This document shows positions 34,295 through 38,744 of a stretch of DNA of 64,000 nt, piece by piece. Numbering within the stretch: position 1 is the first letter of the stretch; every line of letters starts with the position of its first letter. The notes beneath the pieces are model-generated. The model was not told where the DNA came from, made no database searches, and saw only the letters and a program-made list of their open reading frames with translations. Both the position numbers and the translations under genes were made by a program. The stretch is from Escherichia phage Phi1, in sequence record EF437941; one strand, given 5' to 3'.

Positions 34295-36538
34295 TTACAG
34301 CTTGCAAGATGAGCACTCGCTAGAGTCTTCCGTACCATCTGCACCGTCGCGAACGTTCGCATAATACAGGGTTTTCAGACCGTAATATTGAGCAAACAAC
34401 ATATCATCTAACACATCAGCAATATCGACTTTACCAGTCTTATAAGTGCTTGGATCGTAGGATGTATTGGAACTAATCGCCTGATCCACAAACTTCTGCA
34501 TGATCGCTGCCAGTGTCAGATAAGGCTTGTTACCTTTCTTGATCAGTGTCCAAAGCAGGTCAATAACATCAGCATTATTCTCTACGTTCGGAATAACCTG
34601 ATTAAATTGCCCTTCTTTCGATCCTTTAACCGATACAATCCCGCGAGGCGGTTCAATACCGTTTGTGCTGTTAGATACCTGAGAAGACGACTCACAAGGC
34701 ATCAGAGCCGAAAGCGTACTATTACGAATGCCATATTTTTTCAGGTCTTCGCGCAGTTCTTCCCAATCCATCTCATACACCGGATCAACCAGTTCATCTA
34801 CTGTCTTTTTGTACCAGTCGATAGGAAGTTCACCGCGACCATAGCGTGTTTCGTGCATCAGTTCGCAAGCACCCTTCTCTTTAGCCAGTCGCACACTAGC
34901 TTTAATCAGAGCATATTGCAAGCGTTCAAACGTTTTATGCGTAAACTCGTTAGCGTCTTCATATGTGAAGAAATTATCTGCTAGATATGATGCAAAGTTA
35001 GTTACACCAACACCCAGAGAGCGACGTTTTTTGGCTGTCAGAGCTTGTTCTACAGGATAATCCTGATAATCTAACAGGTTGTCAAGTGCACGCACCATAA
35101 CCATAGCAATGCGTTCTACTTCTTCCATATTTTCGATATCAAAGTTTCCTAAAACATATGCTGCCAAAGTGCATAGGCTGATCTCTGAATCATCACGACC
35201 CATCGGTTTTGTAGGCAGAGCAATTTCACAACACAGGTTAGATTGTTTAATTGGTGCTACATTACGAATAAACGCCCCGTGATTGTTCATGTTGTCTGTG
35301 AACGTTGGGTAGATTCGACCAGTGTTAAAACGTTCAATTGCCACCGCTAAAAACAGGTCTTCGGCTTTAACACGAGTTTTACGAACACTCGGATCTTTTT
35401 CCAGTTTTTCGTAAAGCTGACGGAAACCTTCCTCATCTCGGAAGTATAGATCCCACAACAAGCCACCTGCAACATCTGGACTAAACAGAGTAATGTAATC
35501 CCGTTTAAGGAATCGCTCTACCATCAGGTTATTAATCTGTACGCCGTAGTCAAGATGGCGAATGCGGTTATCTTCCACCCCCTTATTGTTCTTTAACACA
35601 ATCAGACTTTCAAACTCTAAATGCCACATTGGGTAATAGAGAGTCGCCGCCCCGCCACGAATACCGCCTTGTGAGCATGACTTAACGGCAGTCTGAAAAT
35701 GTTTCCAGAATGGGATAACGCCAGTATGACGAACTTCACCATGCCCGATCTTAGATCCTTCCGCGCGAATCATGCCAGCGTTGATACCGATACCAGCACG
35801 CTTGCTAATATACTTGATGATTGCATTTGCTGTTTCGTTGATGCCCTGCAATGAGTCATCACTTTCAATCACCACACACGAACTAAATTGGCGTGTTGGG
35901 GTACGCACACCTGCCATAATCGGAGTAGGCAGAGAGATTTGCTTATTCGCAACAGCATTATAAAAATCAATCACATGTTCAAGTCGATTTTCTGTCTCTT
36001 CTTGATGCAAGCACATACCGATCAGCATATACGCAAATTGCGGTGTTTCGATGATTTTCTTAGTGCTGCGATCCTGAACAAGATATTTCTCTTTTAACTG
36101 CATCGCACCAGCATAGGTCATTTTAAAATCAAGTTTATGGTCGATGAATTTCTCCAGATATTCCACTTCTTCACGGGAATACTTTTGCAGAATTTCGCGA
36201 TCATATTTTCCGGTTGCAATATTGCGCTCAATATGGCAGTAAAAATCAATCGGTTGGAATTGTCCGTATACTGATTTGCGAAGCGCGAACATTGCAAGGT
36301 TACTTGCTACATATTGATAATCTGGTGTTTCTACAGTAATGTTATCTGCTGCGACCTTAATCAATACTTTCTGGATATCATTGGTAGACATACCTTCTGT
36401 CAGAAGTGGTTCAACCATATCAAACAATTCATATGGATCAACGTTATGACCTTCGGCTGCCGCTTCCAGAATTTTCATTACTTTTTCTTTTTCAAACGGA
36501 ACAGTCAGACCGGAAGACTTAACAACATTTTTAATCAT
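34295..36538 (-). CDS. nrdA: Ribonucleotide reductase large subunit
   Basis: 747 aa class Ia RNR alpha with ATP-cone N-terminus, active-site Cys/Asn/Glu region and a C-terminal CxxC tail. Confidence 0.9.
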   Translation of the reverse strand: MIKNVVKSSGLTVPFEKEKVMKILEAAAEGHNVDPYELFDMVEPLLTEGMSTNDIQKVLIKVAADNITVETPDYQYVASNLAMFALRKSVYGQFQPIDFYCHIERNIATGKYDREILQKYSREEVEYLEKFIDHKLDFKMTYAGAMQLKEKYLVQDRSTKKIIETPQFAYMLIGMCLHQEETENRLEHVIDFYNAVANKQISLPTPIMAGVRTPTRQFSSCVVIESDDSLQGINETANAIIKYISKRAGIGINAGMIRAEGSKIGHGEVRHTGVIPFWKHFQTAVKSCSQGGIRGGAATLYYPMWHLEFESLIVLKNNKGVEDNRIRHLDYGVQINNLMVERFLKRDYITLFSPDVAGGLLWDLYFRDEEGFRQLYEKLEKDPSVRKTRVKAEDLFLAVAIERFNTGRIYPTFTDNMNNHGAFIRNVAPIKQSNLCCEIALPTKPMGRDDSEISLCTLAAYVLGNFDIENMEEVERIAMVMVRALDNLLDYQDYPVEQALTAKKRRSLGVGVTNFASYLADNFFTYEDANEFTHKTFERLQYALIKASVRLAKEKGACELMHETRYGRGELPIDWYKKTVDELVDPVYEMDWEELREDLKKYGIRNSTLSALMPCESSSQVSNSTNGIEPPRGIVSVKGSKEGQFNQVIPNVENNADVIDLLWTLIKKGNKPYLTLAAIMQKFVDQAISSNTSYDPSTYKTGKVDIADVLDDMLFAQYYGLKTLYYANVRDGADGTEDSSECSSCKL

Positions 36539-36585
36539 ATTACCTCACTTCATATTTTAGCAGGAACAAGTTTATCCTCCATATT

Positions 36586-36601
36586 GGGGGCTTTCGCCCC
36601 C
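36586..36601 (-). promoter_or_regulatory. Intercistronic GNRA-type stem-loop (GGGGGC-GAAA-GCCCCC on the mRNA)
   Basis: Perfect 6-bp GC stem with GAAA loop between td and nrdA; the same RNA hairpin recurs at 48441..48456. Confidence 0.4.
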
Positions 36602-36607
36602 TTTTGT

Positions 36608-37828
36608 TTATACTGCCATTTGAGCGGTGATCGCTGGATGGCTTTGATAGTTGTGAATTTTAAAGTCTTTCGGAGTCTTTGTCAATACCTCATCTAAAGA
36701 TTTAAATTCCGGCAACTCAATTGTTGGTTTATCAAACGGAACACGGCTTAACTGTTCCATAACTTGATCAAAATGGTTTTTGTAAATGTGAGTATCTCCA
36801 CCAGAGAAAATCAGTTCTCCTACCTCAAGATCACACATTTTCGCTATGATGTGAGTTAACAGCGCATAGCTGGCGACGTTAAAGGGCAAGCCCAAAAAGC
36901 TGTCTACGCTTCGCTGAAACCACATACAAGACAGTTTACCCTCATTGACATAGAATTGCACGAACGGATGACATACACCTAATACAGCATTATGTGTTCC
37001 TTGTACGTTCCACGAGTCAATAATGATCCGGCGATCCGTTGGATTGTTTTTAATTTGTTCAATCACGTTTTGTAACTGGTCTTCCCAAATCTTCGGGCGA
37101 TAGACATATTCTTCATCGTCTTTAGTGCTCGATGTGTCTACGTCCATACTAACAAAGATCGTGGTATCCGGTGCTAAAATGTCACCGCCCAGATAATCAC
37201 TATCAAGCAGATAATCGAAATAACCACTATCTACCCATTCCTGGAATCCCCACAAGCAATATGCATCATTAACAAAATTAGATTGAGTCTTCCAGTGGTC
37301 TGCTACCAGAATACAATCAAACTCTTCATAAATCATACCACGCCAGATAGCACATAAACGGTCTTCTGTGTCATTGGTTGGCGTAAAGTCTTCTACCCAC
37401 GGGTGTTTAAATGTATGTGTATATTTGCTCTTAACGCGCTTAATTTTGATTTCACCGTGTGGATGAATCGGTTTGCGTCGCCATGACATACCATACATAT
37501 TTCCGACATTATAACCATTGAATCGCAAAGGATTCTTTTCTTTCATATCAAGACAGTTGCCGCGCCAAATGTCGAAGGCTTCTTCGTCAAACTTACCGCG
37601 TGTAATTTCCTGTAAGCGACGGCGGTCGAGTGATCCCTCCATAAACCATAGCAACTCGCCAATTACAGAGGATGTAGCCATCTTTTTAGTGGTCAGTAAG
37701 GGGAAACCCTTGCTTAAATCAATTCGCATCTCTGCGCCGAATTTAGAGAGCGTACCTACCCCCGTTCGATCTTCACGAGGCCAGCCATTATCAAGAACAT
37801 CACGCAATAGTTTCAAATATTCTTTCAT
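36608..37828 (-). CDS. td: Thymidylate synthase with a large in-frame insertion
   Basis: ThyA motifs throughout (DRTGVGT, catalytic VCHPFVQFY, SVDSFLGLPFN, C-terminal ...MAV); 406 aa against ~286 aa in T4 owing to a ~128-aa insert after GMSWRR. Confidence 0.8.
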   Translation of the reverse strand: MKEYLKLLRDVLDNGWPREDRTGVGTLSKFGAEMRIDLSKGFPLLTTKKMATSSVIGELLWFMEGSLDRRRLQEITRGKFDEEAFDIWRGNCLDMKEKNPLRFNGYNVGNMYGMSWRRKPIHPHGEIKIKRVKSKYTHTFKHPWVEDFTPTNDTEDRLCAIWRGMIYEEFDCILVADHWKTQSNFVNDAYCLWGFQEWVDSGYFDYLLDSDYLGGDILAPDTTIFVSMDVDTSSTKDDEEYVYRPKIWEDQLQNVIEQIKNNPTDRRIIIDSWNVQGTHNAVLGVCHPFVQFYVNEGKLSCMWFQRSVDSFLGLPFNVASYALLTHIIAKMCDLEVGELIFSGGDTHIYKNHFDQVMEQLSRVPFDKPTIELPEFKSLDEVLTKTPKDFKIHNYQSHPAITAQMAV

Positions 37829-38096
37829 CCCACATCACCTTTTTCTTATTGATTGCTTTCTTACGCAGTTTTGCTACTGTCTCGTCAATATTGATAAAGA
37901 CAACGCCCGGATCGAATACAGTAGCAGGTCTTGAAATGTCGCTATTTTCCTGTACTGGAAGCCATGATGCGCTCGCTTCATCATAGAGATATTGTAAACC
38001 GTAATAATCTACGGCTACTGCGTAGTTTTCACTGGTAGCCGTCCATAATTGAATAATACCGACTTTCATTATTGTTCCCGTCCGCAATGTAAGCAC
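37800..38096 (-). CDS. Small hypothetical protein
   Basis: Track ORF; the real start may be the internal Met (MKVGIIQLW...). Confidence 0.4.
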   Translation of the reverse strand: MLTLRTGTIMKVGIIQLWTATSENYAVAVDYYGLQYLYDEASASWLPVQENSDISRPATVFDPGVVFINIDETVAKLRKKAINKKKVMWDERIFETIA

Positions 38097-38162
38097 CGAC
38101 TACCAGCAAACATCAAAGATTCACCACAATGTTTGCACTCATAATCTGTAAGAATTTTCATG

Positions 38163-38744
38163 TTACGCCTTCTTACGTTCTAAAATTTGTTCGCTGATCA
38201 GGTAATTATCAAGGAAGTAATTATGTTCTTCTTTGGTTACAAAGTCAAAATATAATTCCTGAATCATTTCCTTAGAGATACCAACATCATATTCAAATGG
38301 ATCGTTGATTCCTGAACGTTGAACATACGTTAACACAATACGGTCCGCAAAGTCAACCGCTTTTTCAATCAGGGAAGGTCCACCAATAACGCTTACCAAA
38401 CCTTGCAATTTCTCTATGACTTCTAATAATTCCTTCAATCCACCATCATTAGTAATCGCGGTATACACATCAGGTTGTTCGCCGTTTTTTGCTTTCGGTG
38501 CTGGCTTACTGGTATCGGTACTAACAACCACATTCACACGACCTTCCAGTGCTTTAGGGAGACTTTCAAAGGTATTACGTCCCATTACTACCGCCGCAAG
38601 TTCAACATCTCCCATAGTGCGCATTTTAAAGTTTTCCATGTCCTTTTTGATTGGACGACCCCACGGTAAACCGCCTTTAAAACCAAAAGCCCAATTTTCA
38701 TCTGACATTTTAGTGTCACCAATCGCAAATACACATTGAATCAT
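38163..38744 (-). CDS. frd: Dihydrofolate reductase
   Basis: DHFR signature GGLPWGRP and overall similarity to T4 Frd. Confidence 0.85.
   Translation of the reverse strand: MIQCVFAIGDTKMSDENWAFGFKGGLPWGRPIKKDMENFKMRTMGDVELAAVVMGRNTFESLPKALEGRVNVVVSTDTSKPAPKAKNGEQPDVYTAITNDGGLKELLEVIEKLQGLVSVIGGPSLIEKAVDFADRIVLTYVQRSGINDPFEYDVGISKEMIQELYFDFVTKEEHNYFLDNYLISEQILERKKA

What the first reader, a model, noticed from the sequence alone, without database searches (positions are those of the whole stretch)
37085..37468. Thymidylate synthase with a ~128-aa in-frame insertion
The td product aligns to ThyA at both ends, with the catalytic cysteine (VCHPF) and the C-terminal ...MAV intact, but after the conserved GMSWRR block there is a ~128-aa Trp/Tyr/Asp-rich insert before the enzyme resumes at DQLQNVIEQIKNNPTDRRII. 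The ORF is uninterrupted, so this is not a group I intron as in T4 td, and the insert lacks intein boundary residues. An inserted domain at this surface position could mediate an interaction or alter specificity.
Basis: partly seen in the sequence, partly recalled or inferred. Interest (0 to 1): 0.5.

Follow-up and report, generated by a model that had tools for sequence, protein, structure and literature searches.

The report
Endonuclease relic inside phage thymidylate synthase
The extra 131 amino acids in this RB49-like phage's thymidylate synthase are a real folded domain: the eroded remnant of a homing-endonuclease-like gene that inserted in frame into a surface loop of the enzyme and is never spliced out.

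Summary
The td ORF (36608-37828, minus strand, 406 aa) matches ThyA at aa 1-118 and 250-406. One contiguous block of 131 aa (aa 119-249, window 37082-37474) lies between them, and the catalytic residues are intact.

The window is a Krischvirus (RB49-like coliphage). All 57 database relatives carry the insert. It is translated and under purifying selection (dN/dS 0.17, against 0.11 for the core). It is not an intron, an intein or an artefact.

The insert is homologous to a large family of free-standing, homing-endonuclease-like phage proteins, which I equate with the "IPA-HNH" genes of Barth et al. 2023. Longer, basic copies that keep nearly all family-conserved residues sit at the same site in thymidylate synthases of jumbo coliphages, a Bacillus herellevirus and dozens of metagenomic lineages.

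The copy here is trimmed. It has lost the N-terminal and C-terminal modules and the family's invariant Arg, Lys, Tyr and Asn (Ser and Cys too), and it has turned strongly acidic (pI 4.7, against about 9.2).

Most likely it is a catalytically dead relic kept on a beta-ribbon stalk of a working enzyme. A new protein-binding role cannot be excluded. No paper found by my searches describes it.

The parts
36608..37828 (-). td gene: 406-aa ThyA-type thymidylate synthase carrying the insert (stop codon 36608-36610)
   Evidence: ORF list. Pfam PF00303 E 1e-84 in two stretches. NCBIfam thymidylate synthase equivalogs. PDB ThyA hits E 1e-68. 96-98% DNA identity to td of RB49-like phages.
37475..37828 (-). 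ThyA core, N-terminal part (aa 1-118), ending in the conserved G-x-x-Y-G-x-x-W-R motif
   Evidence: Aligns to E. coli ThyA residues 1-82 and onward to W98-R99. Invariant R21, E58, W88, Y112, W116, R117.
37082..37474 (-). The insert, aa 119-249 (131 aa): relic of an IPA-HNH-type homing-endonuclease-like module
   Evidence: Translation. 35.9 bits, E 3e-13, against an HMM built only from free-standing family members; best of 2000 shuffles 9.2 bits. hhalign of TS inserts against the free-standing family: probability 100%, E 8e-45. tblastn to the phage UE-S1 TS insert: 30% identity, E 3e-5. dN/dS 0.17.
37439..37477 (-). Outgoing strand of the predicted two-stranded beta stalk (aa 118-130, KPIHPHGEIKIKR)
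   Evidence: DSSP on the AlphaFold2 model: strand 118-130, overall pLDDT 91. The motif P-x-x-P-H...I-x-R is conserved among insert-bearing TS.
37109..37438 (-). Globular part of the relic (aa 131-240): helices 153-169, 177-189 and 195-200, hairpin 206-209/224-227. Net charge -15, pI 4.2
37334..37360 (-). RLCAIWRGM (aa 157-165): remnant of the family motif Y-x-x-W-x-x-M-x-x-R-C-Y. The Trp and Met are kept; the invariant Arg is lost
   Evidence: Profile alignment and table of conserved columns.
37196..37207 (-). LDSD (aa 208-211): degenerate form of the family-invariant L-D-K-D motif, with the Lys lost
   Evidence: Translation. D-K-D is invariant in 36 free-standing members and kept in the long TS inserts.
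37154..37180 (-). ILAPDTTIF (aa 217-225): degenerate form of the family motif Y-S-P-x-T-C-x-F. Y, S and C are lost. The following invariant Asn is replaced by Asp231, and the helix that should carry it is not predicted
37079..37108 (-). Returning strand of the stalk (aa 241-250, EYVYRPKIWE-D), leading back into the ThyA core at D250-Q-L
   Evidence: DSSP strand 241-250. The motif Y/H-V-x-R-P-x-I is conserved in nearly all insert-bearing TS.
36611..37081 (-). ThyA core, C-terminal part (aa 250-406), with catalytic Cys286-His287 (Cys codon 36971-36973), R266-R267, Q-R-S-x-D, Asn317, D345-x-H347-x-Y349 and the C-terminal MAV
   Evidence: Aligns to E. coli ThyA 110-264. Invariant columns.
38163..38744 (-). 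frd (dihydrofolate reductase), upstream partner gene: context showing a normal T4-type frd-td-nrdA nucleotide-metabolism block
   Evidence: Pfam DHFR_1. Same synteny in related contigs L005-L007.
34295..36538 (-). nrdA (ribonucleotide reductase large subunit), downstream neighbour: context
   Evidence: 747-aa ORF. The equivalent 747-aa genes in L005 and L006 carry ATP-cone and ribonucleotide reductase domains.

Best explanation
The insert is a molecular fossil of a homing-endonuclease-like gene lodged in frame inside td. An ancestor of this thymidylate synthase acquired a complete IPA-HNH-type module in the variable surface loop that follows the Y-G-x-x-W-R motif. That module had an N-terminal beta-rich part, a core carrying the W..M..RCY / W..F.NF / L-D-K-D / Y-S-P-x-T-C-x-F / N motifs, and a C-terminal helix-turn-helix-like tail. 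The module is neither spliced from the RNA nor excised from the protein; the host enzyme simply tolerates it. Frameshifts would destroy td, so the element could decay only by in-frame deletions and substitutions. In the Krischvirus lineage this left 131 aa. These form a two-stranded beta stalk (aa 118-130 and 241-250) holding a compact helical domain with a hairpin. The relic has lost both outer modules and the family's invariant Arg, Lys, Tyr and Asn (Ser and Cys as well), and it has changed from basic to strongly acidic. It therefore most likely neither cuts nor binds DNA now. The enzyme around it keeps every catalytic and substrate-binding residue and sits in a normal frd-td-nrdA block, so it most likely still makes dTMP. 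Shown here: the insert is real, contiguous and translated; it is under purifying selection; it is homologous to the endonuclease-like family; it lies at the same site as the long inserts; and it has lost motifs, modules and positive charge. Inferred: the direction of change (long form to short form), the loss of nuclease and DNA-binding activity, continued TS activity, and the reason for retention. The relic may be entrenched in folding. Its DNA may also keep the td allele without the uninterrupted junction that an embedded endonuclease of this type would be expected to target.
For: Contiguity and site. Fixed in the genus: 57 of 57 records. Also present in more distant T4-like contigs with gp59-gp32-frd-td-nrdA synteny. 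Selection: window against L005 gives core dN/dS 0.105 and insert 0.169. Insert identity tracks core identity, for example 51% against 67% for P0003. Homology to the endonuclease-like family: the phage UE-S1 TS insert hits PHROG 2081, 953 and 374, all annotated 'HNH endonuclease', at E 4e-32 to 8e-21. The window insert scores 35.9 bits against an HMM of free-standing proteins, with 9.2 bits the maximum over 2000 shuffles. hhalign gives probability 100%. An exhaustive profile search finds 6779 cluster representatives, and 77 of the best 150 are TS carrying the domain at this same site. Free-standing members occupy positions typical of homing endonuclease genes: between primase and DNA polymerase, after the ICP1 DNA polymerase, after nrdB, and splitting the large terminase gene of Yersinia phage fPS-86. 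The family corresponds to the IPA-HNH genes of Barth, Dunham and Seed 2023 (PMC10448857), because it shares the ICP1 gene next to DNA polymerase and the Barbavirus and Flaumdravirus (KIL) hits. Erosion: long TS inserts keep 20-21 of 22 family-conserved residues and the window keeps 13. Charge: free-standing median pI 9.2, long inserts 8.2-9.5, window 4.65. The helix that carries the invariant Asn is not predicted in the window. An in-frame 12-nt indel polymorphism occurs inside the insert among Krischvirus genomes. Folded state: pLDDT about 90. Presence/absence among related cores: P0015 (with insert) is 83% identical in its core to insert-less P0090 but at most 66% to any other insert-bearing TS.
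Confidence: 0.7

Rival explanations
1. Domesticated interaction domain. The relic has been remodelled into an acidic, aromatic-rich surface module that now does something useful. It might dock thymidylate synthase onto a basic partner, such as another enzyme of the T4-type dNTP-synthesising complex, gp32 or a host protein. It might act as a DNA mimic.
For: dN/dS is 0.17, close to the core's 0.11. The domain folds confidently on a projecting stalk. Net charge has inverted systematically to -12 in Krischvirus, with intermediate values (-1 to -5) in more distant T4-like relatives. The insert is fixed in 57 of 57 genomes. From memory, not tested here: T4 td is reported to be part of a dNTP synthetase complex and to be retained on gp32 columns (work of C. 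K. Mathews and colleagues).
Against: No partner is known and no co-varying neighbour gene was identified. Conservation can also be explained by the need to keep an embedded domain foldable. The charge differs widely among the short inserts, which argues against one fixed binding surface.
Confidence: 0.25
2. Still-active mobile element. The embedded domain is a working site-specific endonuclease, made as part of the td protein, that cuts insert-less td alleles of co-infecting phages and is copied into them.
For: This is plausible for the long inserts, which keep 20-21 of 22 family-conserved residues, are basic, and retain the extra DNA-binding-like tail. The same site is occupied in very different TS backbones, including the divergent TS-family enzyme of Bacillus phage Kioshi. 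There is a presence/absence difference between cores that are 83% identical.
Against: In this window the invariant Lys of D-K-D, the Y-S, the Cys, the Asn and the Arg are all replaced, and both flanking modules are missing. The domain has net charge -12. No insert-less Krischvirus td exists in the database to serve as a target.
Confidence: 0.05
3. Home-grown elaboration of the ThyA small domain, unrelated to any mobile element. Comparable cases would be the 50-aa insert of Lactobacillus casei TS or the 12-aa insert of eukaryotic TS.
For: ThyA is known to tolerate length variation in this general region. Some bacterial-type TS in the alignment (P0018, P0115) carry 20-30 extra residues at this loop.
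Against: The sequence is significantly similar to free-standing non-TS proteins. There is a graded series of longer inserts matching those proteins end to end. By my recollection of the L. casei sequence, its insert lies before the Y-G-x-Q-W-R motif rather than after it.
Confidence: 0.02
4. An intervening sequence that is removed (group I intron with an open frame, or an intein), or an assembly artefact.
For: T4 td carries a group I intron, and inteins are common in phage nucleotide-metabolism genes.
Against: Rfam gives no match at E up to 1. The substitution pattern is that of a protein-coding sequence. There are no intein boundary residues and no Hint domain. The insert is identically placed in 57 independent genomes.
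Confidence: 0.01

Closest known systems
IPA-HNH homing-endonuclease-like genes (ICP1 gp59, gp115 and gp209 type; Barth, Dunham and Seed 2023, NAR Genom Bioinform, PMC10448857); PHROGs 2081, 953 and 374 'HNH endonuclease'
   Same: Same domain family by sequence profile and by predicted fold. Same lineages are enriched: ICP1, Barbaviruses and Flaumdraviruses.
   Different: Those genes are free-standing, lie next to or between pieces of essential genes, are basic, and often carry AP2 or NUMOD DNA-binding tails. Here the module lies in frame inside an enzyme, is cut down to its middle part, has lost the invariant residues and is acidic. The paper does not mention thymidylate synthase in its text or in the supplements held.
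Long-insert thymidylate synthases of other phages, e.g. Escherichia phage UE-S1 (Asteriusvirus, 517 aa), Klebsiella phage phiKp_21 (517 aa), Bacillus phage Kioshi (548 aa) and many metagenomic forms of 450-660 aa
   Same: Same insertion site, same flanking stalk motifs and a homologous insert.
   Different: Their inserts are 245-285 aa and keep the N-terminal beta module, the D-K-D, Y-S, C and N residues and a C-terminal tail. They are basic. In databases they are annotated only as thymidylate synthase or hypothetical protein.
Inteins with nested homing endonucleases
   Same: An endonuclease-related module sits in frame at a conserved site of a nucleotide-metabolism gene, with presence/absence among related alleles.
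   Different: There is no Hint splicing domain and no splice-junction residues. The module is predicted to stay in the mature protein as an extra domain.
T4 td group I intron with I-TevI, and homing-endonuclease-split genes such as Aeh1 nrdA/mobE
   Same: Homing-endonuclease-type elements colonise td and its neighbours in T4-like phages. A split nrdA is present in the related contig L007.
   Different: Those solutions rely on RNA splicing or on splitting the gene into two polypeptides, and they use GIY-YIG or canonical HNH enzymes. Here the host reading frame runs straight through the element.
Known length variation of the ThyA small domain (L. casei 50-aa insert; eukaryotic 12-aa insert after Q-W-R; both from memory)
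   Same: This shows that this face of ThyA tolerates insertions. The eukaryotic insert is, by my recollection, at the same loop.
   Different: Those inserts are short and unrelated in sequence, and they are not derived from a mobile-element protein.

Membership tests
ThyA-type thymidylate synthase (PF00303 / TIGR03284) | Profile match above the curated threshold over both halves of the fold | tested here: met
   PF00303: 284 bits against a cutoff of 24.3. TIGR03284: 284 bits against a cutoff of 108. Two stretches, aa 1-~118 and 250-406.
ThyA-type thymidylate synthase (PF00303 / TIGR03284) | Catalytic Cys-His and the dUMP/folate-binding residues (E. coli R21, E58, W80, Y94, R126, R127, C146, H147, Q165, R166, S167, D169, N177, D205, H207, Y209) | tested here: met
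   R21, E58, W88, Y112, R266, R267, C286, H287, R306, S307, D309, N317, D345, H347 and Y349 are invariant or nearly invariant columns of alignment A1. Pairwise alignment to E. coli ThyA.
ThyA-type thymidylate synthase (PF00303 / TIGR03284) | dTMP synthase activity | not testable with these tools
   Needs an enzyme assay or complementation of a thyA mutant.
IPA-HNH / PHROG 2081-type homing-endonuclease-like family | Significant sequence-profile similarity to free-standing members | tested here: met
   35.9 bits, E 3e-13, against an HMM of 36 free-standing proteins; shuffle maximum 9.2 bits. hhalign probability 100%. The window insert alone against PHROG 2081 reaches only E 0.2.
IPA-HNH / PHROG 2081-type homing-endonuclease-like family | Family-invariant residues (R of R-C-Y, D-K-D, Y-S, C, N) | tested here: not met
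   The window has E for R, D-S-D, L-A, T and D. It keeps 13 of 22 conserved columns, against 20-21 in the long TS inserts.
IPA-HNH / PHROG 2081-type homing-endonuclease-like family | Full module architecture (N-terminal beta-rich part with G-V-G-Y-x-G, and a C-terminal DNA-binding tail such as AP2, NUMOD or HTH-like) | tested here: not met
   Both are absent from the window insert and present in the long TS inserts and in free-standing members.
IPA-HNH / PHROG 2081-type homing-endonuclease-like family | Membership of the HNH (beta-beta-alpha-metal) superfamily | tested here: inconclusive
IPA-HNH / PHROG 2081-type homing-endonuclease-like family | Endonuclease and homing activity | not testable with these tools
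   Within the paper read the family is assigned only by HHsearch and domain architecture. I found no biochemical data for any member.
Intein | Cys/Ser (or Ala) as first residue; His-Asn at the end, followed by Cys/Ser/Thr | tested here: not met
   The insert starts K-P-I-H and ends K-I-W-E, followed by D-Q-L. D250 is invariant in all TS.
Intein | Hint/splicing domain | tested here: not met
   No Pfam family at E up to 10 on the insert. The predicted fold is helical with one hairpin.
Group I intron (as in T4 td) | Ribozyme core detectable by covariance model; interrupted or unconstrained reading frame | tested here: not met
   No Rfam match at E up to 1 in 36400-38200. Open frame. dN/dS 0.17.

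The most novel reading that the evidence does not exclude
The thymidylate-synthase-embedded IPA-HNH modules may represent a separate way for a homing element to live inside a conserved gene, needing neither an intron nor an intein. The endonuclease gene would sit in frame in a permissive surface loop, be translated as an extra domain of the host enzyme, cut insert-less td alleles at the uninterrupted junction, and be copied in. The Krischvirus insert would then be the decayed end state of such an element, constrained by the host frame to erode only through in-frame changes and later remodelled into an acidic domain.
Probability: 0.3. Interest if true: 0.75.

Novelty: new variant of a known kind. 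Interest (0 to 1): 0.58.

Why it matters
Homing endonuclease genes are thought to survive in essential genes by one of three routes: hiding in self-splicing introns or inteins, sitting between genes, or splitting the gene. Here an endonuclease-like module sits in frame inside an enzyme and stays in the protein. It does so at one and the same loop of thymidylate synthase in T4-like coliphages, jumbo phages, Bacillus herelleviruses and dozens of uncultured lineages.

If the long forms are active, this would be a fourth residence strategy. It would also be an easily testable one, because td is non-essential in the laboratory, selectable, and structurally well understood.

The window's copy shows what happens to such an element over time. 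It has been trimmed, has lost its conserved motifs, has inverted its charge and is still under selection. That makes it a natural example of how a selfish insertion can become a permanent, possibly useful, domain of a housekeeping enzyme.

For annotation, 400-660-aa "thymidylate synthases" should be recognised as two-part proteins.

Tried and rejected
- **Word-indexed protein searches.** The search with the insert alone found nothing. With the insert alignment it found only close TS relatives. The exhaustive profile search was needed.
- **Pfam and NCBIfam.** Neither gives any family for the window insert, the long inserts or the free-standing members.
- **PDB by sequence profile.** Only chance hits to Get1.
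- **AlphaFold database.** It was not available for fold search.
- **Direct profile comparison with one canonical HNH_3 protein.** Negative.
- **Literature.** Searches for RB49 td, in-frame homing endonucleases in thymidylate synthase and jumbo-phage TS found no description of the insert. The RB49 genome paper is not held in the library.
- **Intron, intein, artefact and 'scattered small indels'.** All considered and rejected.
- **L. casei-type small-domain insert.** Considered, but from my recollection of that sequence its insert lies upstream of the Y-G-x-Q-W-R motif. It is therefore not at the same site. This was not tested with a tool.
- **Test for homing by comparing close relatives (Bacillus phage Kioshi against Hobo).** This showed replacement of the whole td gene, with breakpoints at the gene ends, rather than a simple insert present/absent pair. 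It shows cassette exchange, not homing.
- **Neighbour-joining/Fitch count of gains and losses.** The result (3 or more events) is crude and the sampling is biased, so I give it little weight.
Full report
**1.

The minus-strand ORF 36608-37828 encodes a 406-aa protein. Pfam's thymidylate synthase model and solved ThyA structures match it in two pieces. Residues 1-82 align to E. coli ThyA 1-82, and residues 250-406 align to E. coli 110-264.

I aligned it with 21 relatives of 276-559 aa. The conserved Y-G-x-x-W-R motif (Y112, W116, R117) and the invariant D250-Q251 bracket one contiguous block. That block is aa 119-249, window 37082-37474 (translation checked). E. coli has ten residues there.

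The composition is as described: 6 Trp, 8 Tyr and 16 Asp in 131 residues. All catalytic and substrate-binding residues of ThyA are present, including Cys286-His287, Arg266-Arg267 and Asn317.

**2. It is not an artefact, an intron or an intein**

- The window belongs to a Krischvirus, the RB49-like T4-type coliphages.
- All 57 database records that match td cover it completely. Their insert is 90-98% identical at protein level.
- Rfam finds no RNA family in or around the gene.
- Against a relative whose td protein is 88% identical (L005), dN/dS is 0.169 in the insert and 0.105 in the enzyme core. The insert is therefore translated and under purifying selection.
- It begins K-P-I-H and ends K-I-W-E before the invariant Asp. 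It has no intein junction residues and no Hint domain.
- AlphaFold2 predicts the whole protein with mean pLDDT 91 and the insert alone with 90. Two long strands (118-130 and 241-250) form a stalk. The stalk carries a compact domain of helices 153-169, 177-189 and 195-200 plus a hairpin at 206-209/224-227.

**3. Where the insert comes from**

The insert has no Pfam or NCBIfam match. By tblastn, however, it matches a larger insert at the same place in the 517-aa thymidylate synthase of the jumbo coliphage UE-S1 (30% identity, E 3e-5).

That larger insert hits PHROGs annotated 'HNH endonuclease' at E 4e-32, 7e-25 and 8e-21. It also matches sequences in 1,440 phage records, most of them in free-standing genes.

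A profile of TS inserts searched exhaustively against 1.84 billion representatives gives 6,779 hits, of which 1,332 are at E ≤ 1e-10. Of the best 150, 77 are thymidylate synthases with the domain at this same site. The other 73 are free-standing proteins of 130-740 aa.

Homology is firm:
- hhalign of TS inserts against 36 free-standing proteins gives probability 100%, E 8e-45.
- The window insert alone scores 35.9 bits against an HMM built only from free-standing proteins. The best of 2,000 shuffles scores 9.2 bits.
- Foldseek of the insert model against viral structure predictions returns the same two groups.

**4. What the parent family is**

Free-standing members lie where homing endonuclease genes usually lie:
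- between primase and DNA polymerase (Vibrio phage D258);
- directly after the ICP1 DNA polymerase;
- directly after nrdB (Bacillus phage fHSPT3);
- between the two halves of the large terminase gene of Yersinia phage fPS-86.

Some carry I-HmuI-type NUMOD or AP2 tails. None of the 49 scanned has a canonical Pfam HNH domain.

Barth, Dunham and Seed (2023, PMC10448857) named ICP1 gp59, gp115 and gp209 'IPA-HNH' homing endonuclease genes. They describe a divergent N-terminal HNH domain seen only by HHsearch, a C-terminal AP2 domain, enrichment in Barbaviruses and Flaumdraviruses, and positions near DNA polymerase, ribonucleotide reductase and terminase genes.

My family includes the ICP1 gene next to DNA polymerase and hits in Barbaviruses and Flaumdraviruses (KIL phages). 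I therefore equate the two. I did not use their HMM.

The link to HNH enzymes remains weak in my own tests:
- Foldseek against the PDB finds nothing;
- hhalign against one HNH_3 protein is negative.

The family's invariant residues are W, R, W, D-K-D, Y and N, with S and C nearly invariant. Combined with the predicted strand-loop-strand, they fit a beta-beta-alpha-metal finger in which Lys replaces the usual His. This is my inference.

**5. The copy in this window is an eroded one**

The long TS inserts (244-283 aa) contain everything a free-standing protein has: the N-terminal beta-rich part ending in G-V-G-Y-x-G, the core, and a C-terminal tail. They keep 20-21 of the 22 columns that are at least 85% conserved in free-standing members.

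The window insert lacks both outer parts and keeps 13 of 22 columns. Its substitutions are:
- the Arg of R-C-Y is Glu;
- D-K-D is D-S-D (37196-37207);
- Y-S-P-x-T-C is L-A-P-D-T-T;
- the invariant Asn is Asp, and the helix that should carry it is not predicted.

Charge has inverted as well. Free-standing proteins have median pI 9.2 (net +9) and long TS inserts have pI 8.2-9.5. The window insert has pI 4.65 (net -12), and its globular part is -15. More distant T4-like relatives are intermediate.

Krischvirus genomes also differ by an in-frame 12-nt indel. It lies exactly where the family's R-C-Y...Y-G-G-x-G-V segment has been deleted. This is the decay pattern expected for an element that cannot afford a frameshift.

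**6. How the insert is distributed among thymidylate synthases**

The insertion is always at the same loop. That holds even in the very divergent TS-family enzyme of Bacillus phage Kioshi, which is 548 aa.

Insert-bearing enzymes do not form one clean group by their cores. P0015 (559 aa) is 83% identical in its core to insert-less P0090 (276 aa), but at most 66% identical to any other insert-bearing enzyme. The two differ by a clean presence/absence between W-R-x-W and D-Q-L.

A crude tree needs at least three gains or losses. The inserts themselves mostly resemble other TS inserts: the nearest neighbour is another TS insert in 91 of 94 cases. This suggests a TS-resident sub-lineage.

Kioshi and its close relative Hobo differ by replacement of the whole td gene, with breakpoints at the gene ends. 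That shows cassette exchange but not homing. Whether the long inserts are mobile therefore remains open.

**7. Interpretation**

The best-supported reading is that the insert is a fossil of an IPA-HNH-type module that entered td in frame at a permissive loop. By my recollection this is the same loop that carries the 12-residue eukaryotic insert.

- The host enzyme tolerates the module without splicing.
- In the Krischvirus lineage it has been trimmed and has very probably lost any nuclease or DNA-binding function.
- The enzyme around it most likely still makes dTMP. It sits in an ordinary gp59-gp32-frd-td-nrdA block.

Why the relic is still under selection is not settled. It may be entrenched in the folding of the enzyme. 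Its DNA may keep the allele free of the uninterrupted junction that such an endonuclease would target. It may instead have been recruited as an acidic protein-binding module, which is the main rival reading.

**8. Novelty**

These sequences are in public databases, annotated simply as thymidylate synthase. I found no paper that describes the insert, its origin or the long forms.

Conceptually it lies between inteins, intron-borne endonucleases and gene-splitting free-standing endonucleases. I class it as a new variant of a known kind. The more novel reading, an in-frame non-splicing homing element, remains open at roughly 30%.

Noticed in passing
window:39137-40561 (-): A 474-aa ORF two small genes upstream of frd has a CapR homology domain and a DUF4379 treble-clef zinc finger in repeated Cys-rich units. 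This is the DNA-binding architecture that Barth et al. associate with T5orf172-type homing endonuclease genes. No nuclease domain reached threshold. The equivalent gene in the related contig L005 is only 340 aa, so the locus varies in size.
   Followed up: partly
L007:4689-7876: In a metagenomic T4-like contig that also carries the short td insert, nrdA is split into a 476-aa ORF and a 324-aa ORF by a 237-aa gene with HNH and I-HmuI NUMOD-like domains. This is a genes-in-pieces arrangement like Aeh1 nrdA/mobE.
   Followed up: partly
L003:392-3298 (Yersinia phage fPS-86): The large terminase gene is in two pieces: a 164-aa N-terminal part matching Terminase_6N positions 6-104, and a 440-aa part with the T7 RNaseH-like domain. 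They are separated by a 178-aa free-standing member of the insert's family. A canonical HNH_3-AP2 endonuclease gene lies just upstream.
   Followed up: partly
window:37292-37327 region (aa ~168-179 of td): Krischvirus genomes fall into two td length classes, 1221 and 1233 nt. They differ by an in-frame 12-nt indel inside the insert (EFDCILV against EFDSEYNLFLV), at the spot where the parent family's R-C-Y...G-G-x-G-V segment has been deleted.
   Followed up: partly
L010:2051-3697 vs L012:1733-2602 (Bacillus phages Kioshi and Hobo): These are two Caeruleovirus phages. They are 96% identical downstream of td and 75% identical upstream. Their td genes are unrelated at DNA level: 548 aa with a full-length insert in a divergent TS backbone, against a canonical 289-aa ThyA. 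The similarity breakpoints coincide with the gene ends, so this is whole-gene cassette replacement.
   Followed up: yes
proteins P0140, P0147, P0183, P0193, P0207, P0213, P0225, P0226, P0233: Several insert-bearing thymidylate synthases show a second, smaller gap (about 25-50 aa) in the ThyA match near profile position 178. This suggests an additional insertion elsewhere in the enzyme.
   Followed up: no
window:36968-36985 (aa 282-287): In the T4-like and jumbo-phage insert-bearing enzymes, the residue before the catalytic Cys is Val, Ile or Met (L-G-V-C-H-P) instead of the usual Pro (L-P-P-C-H). P0015 and P0087, whose cores resemble insert-less enzymes, keep Pro.
   Followed up: no
window:37800-38096 (-): A 98-aa ORF with no family match overlaps the td start codon by 29 nt. 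A counterpart of 89 aa overlaps td in the same way in contig L005, so it is probably a real small gene translationally coupled to td.
   Followed up: no
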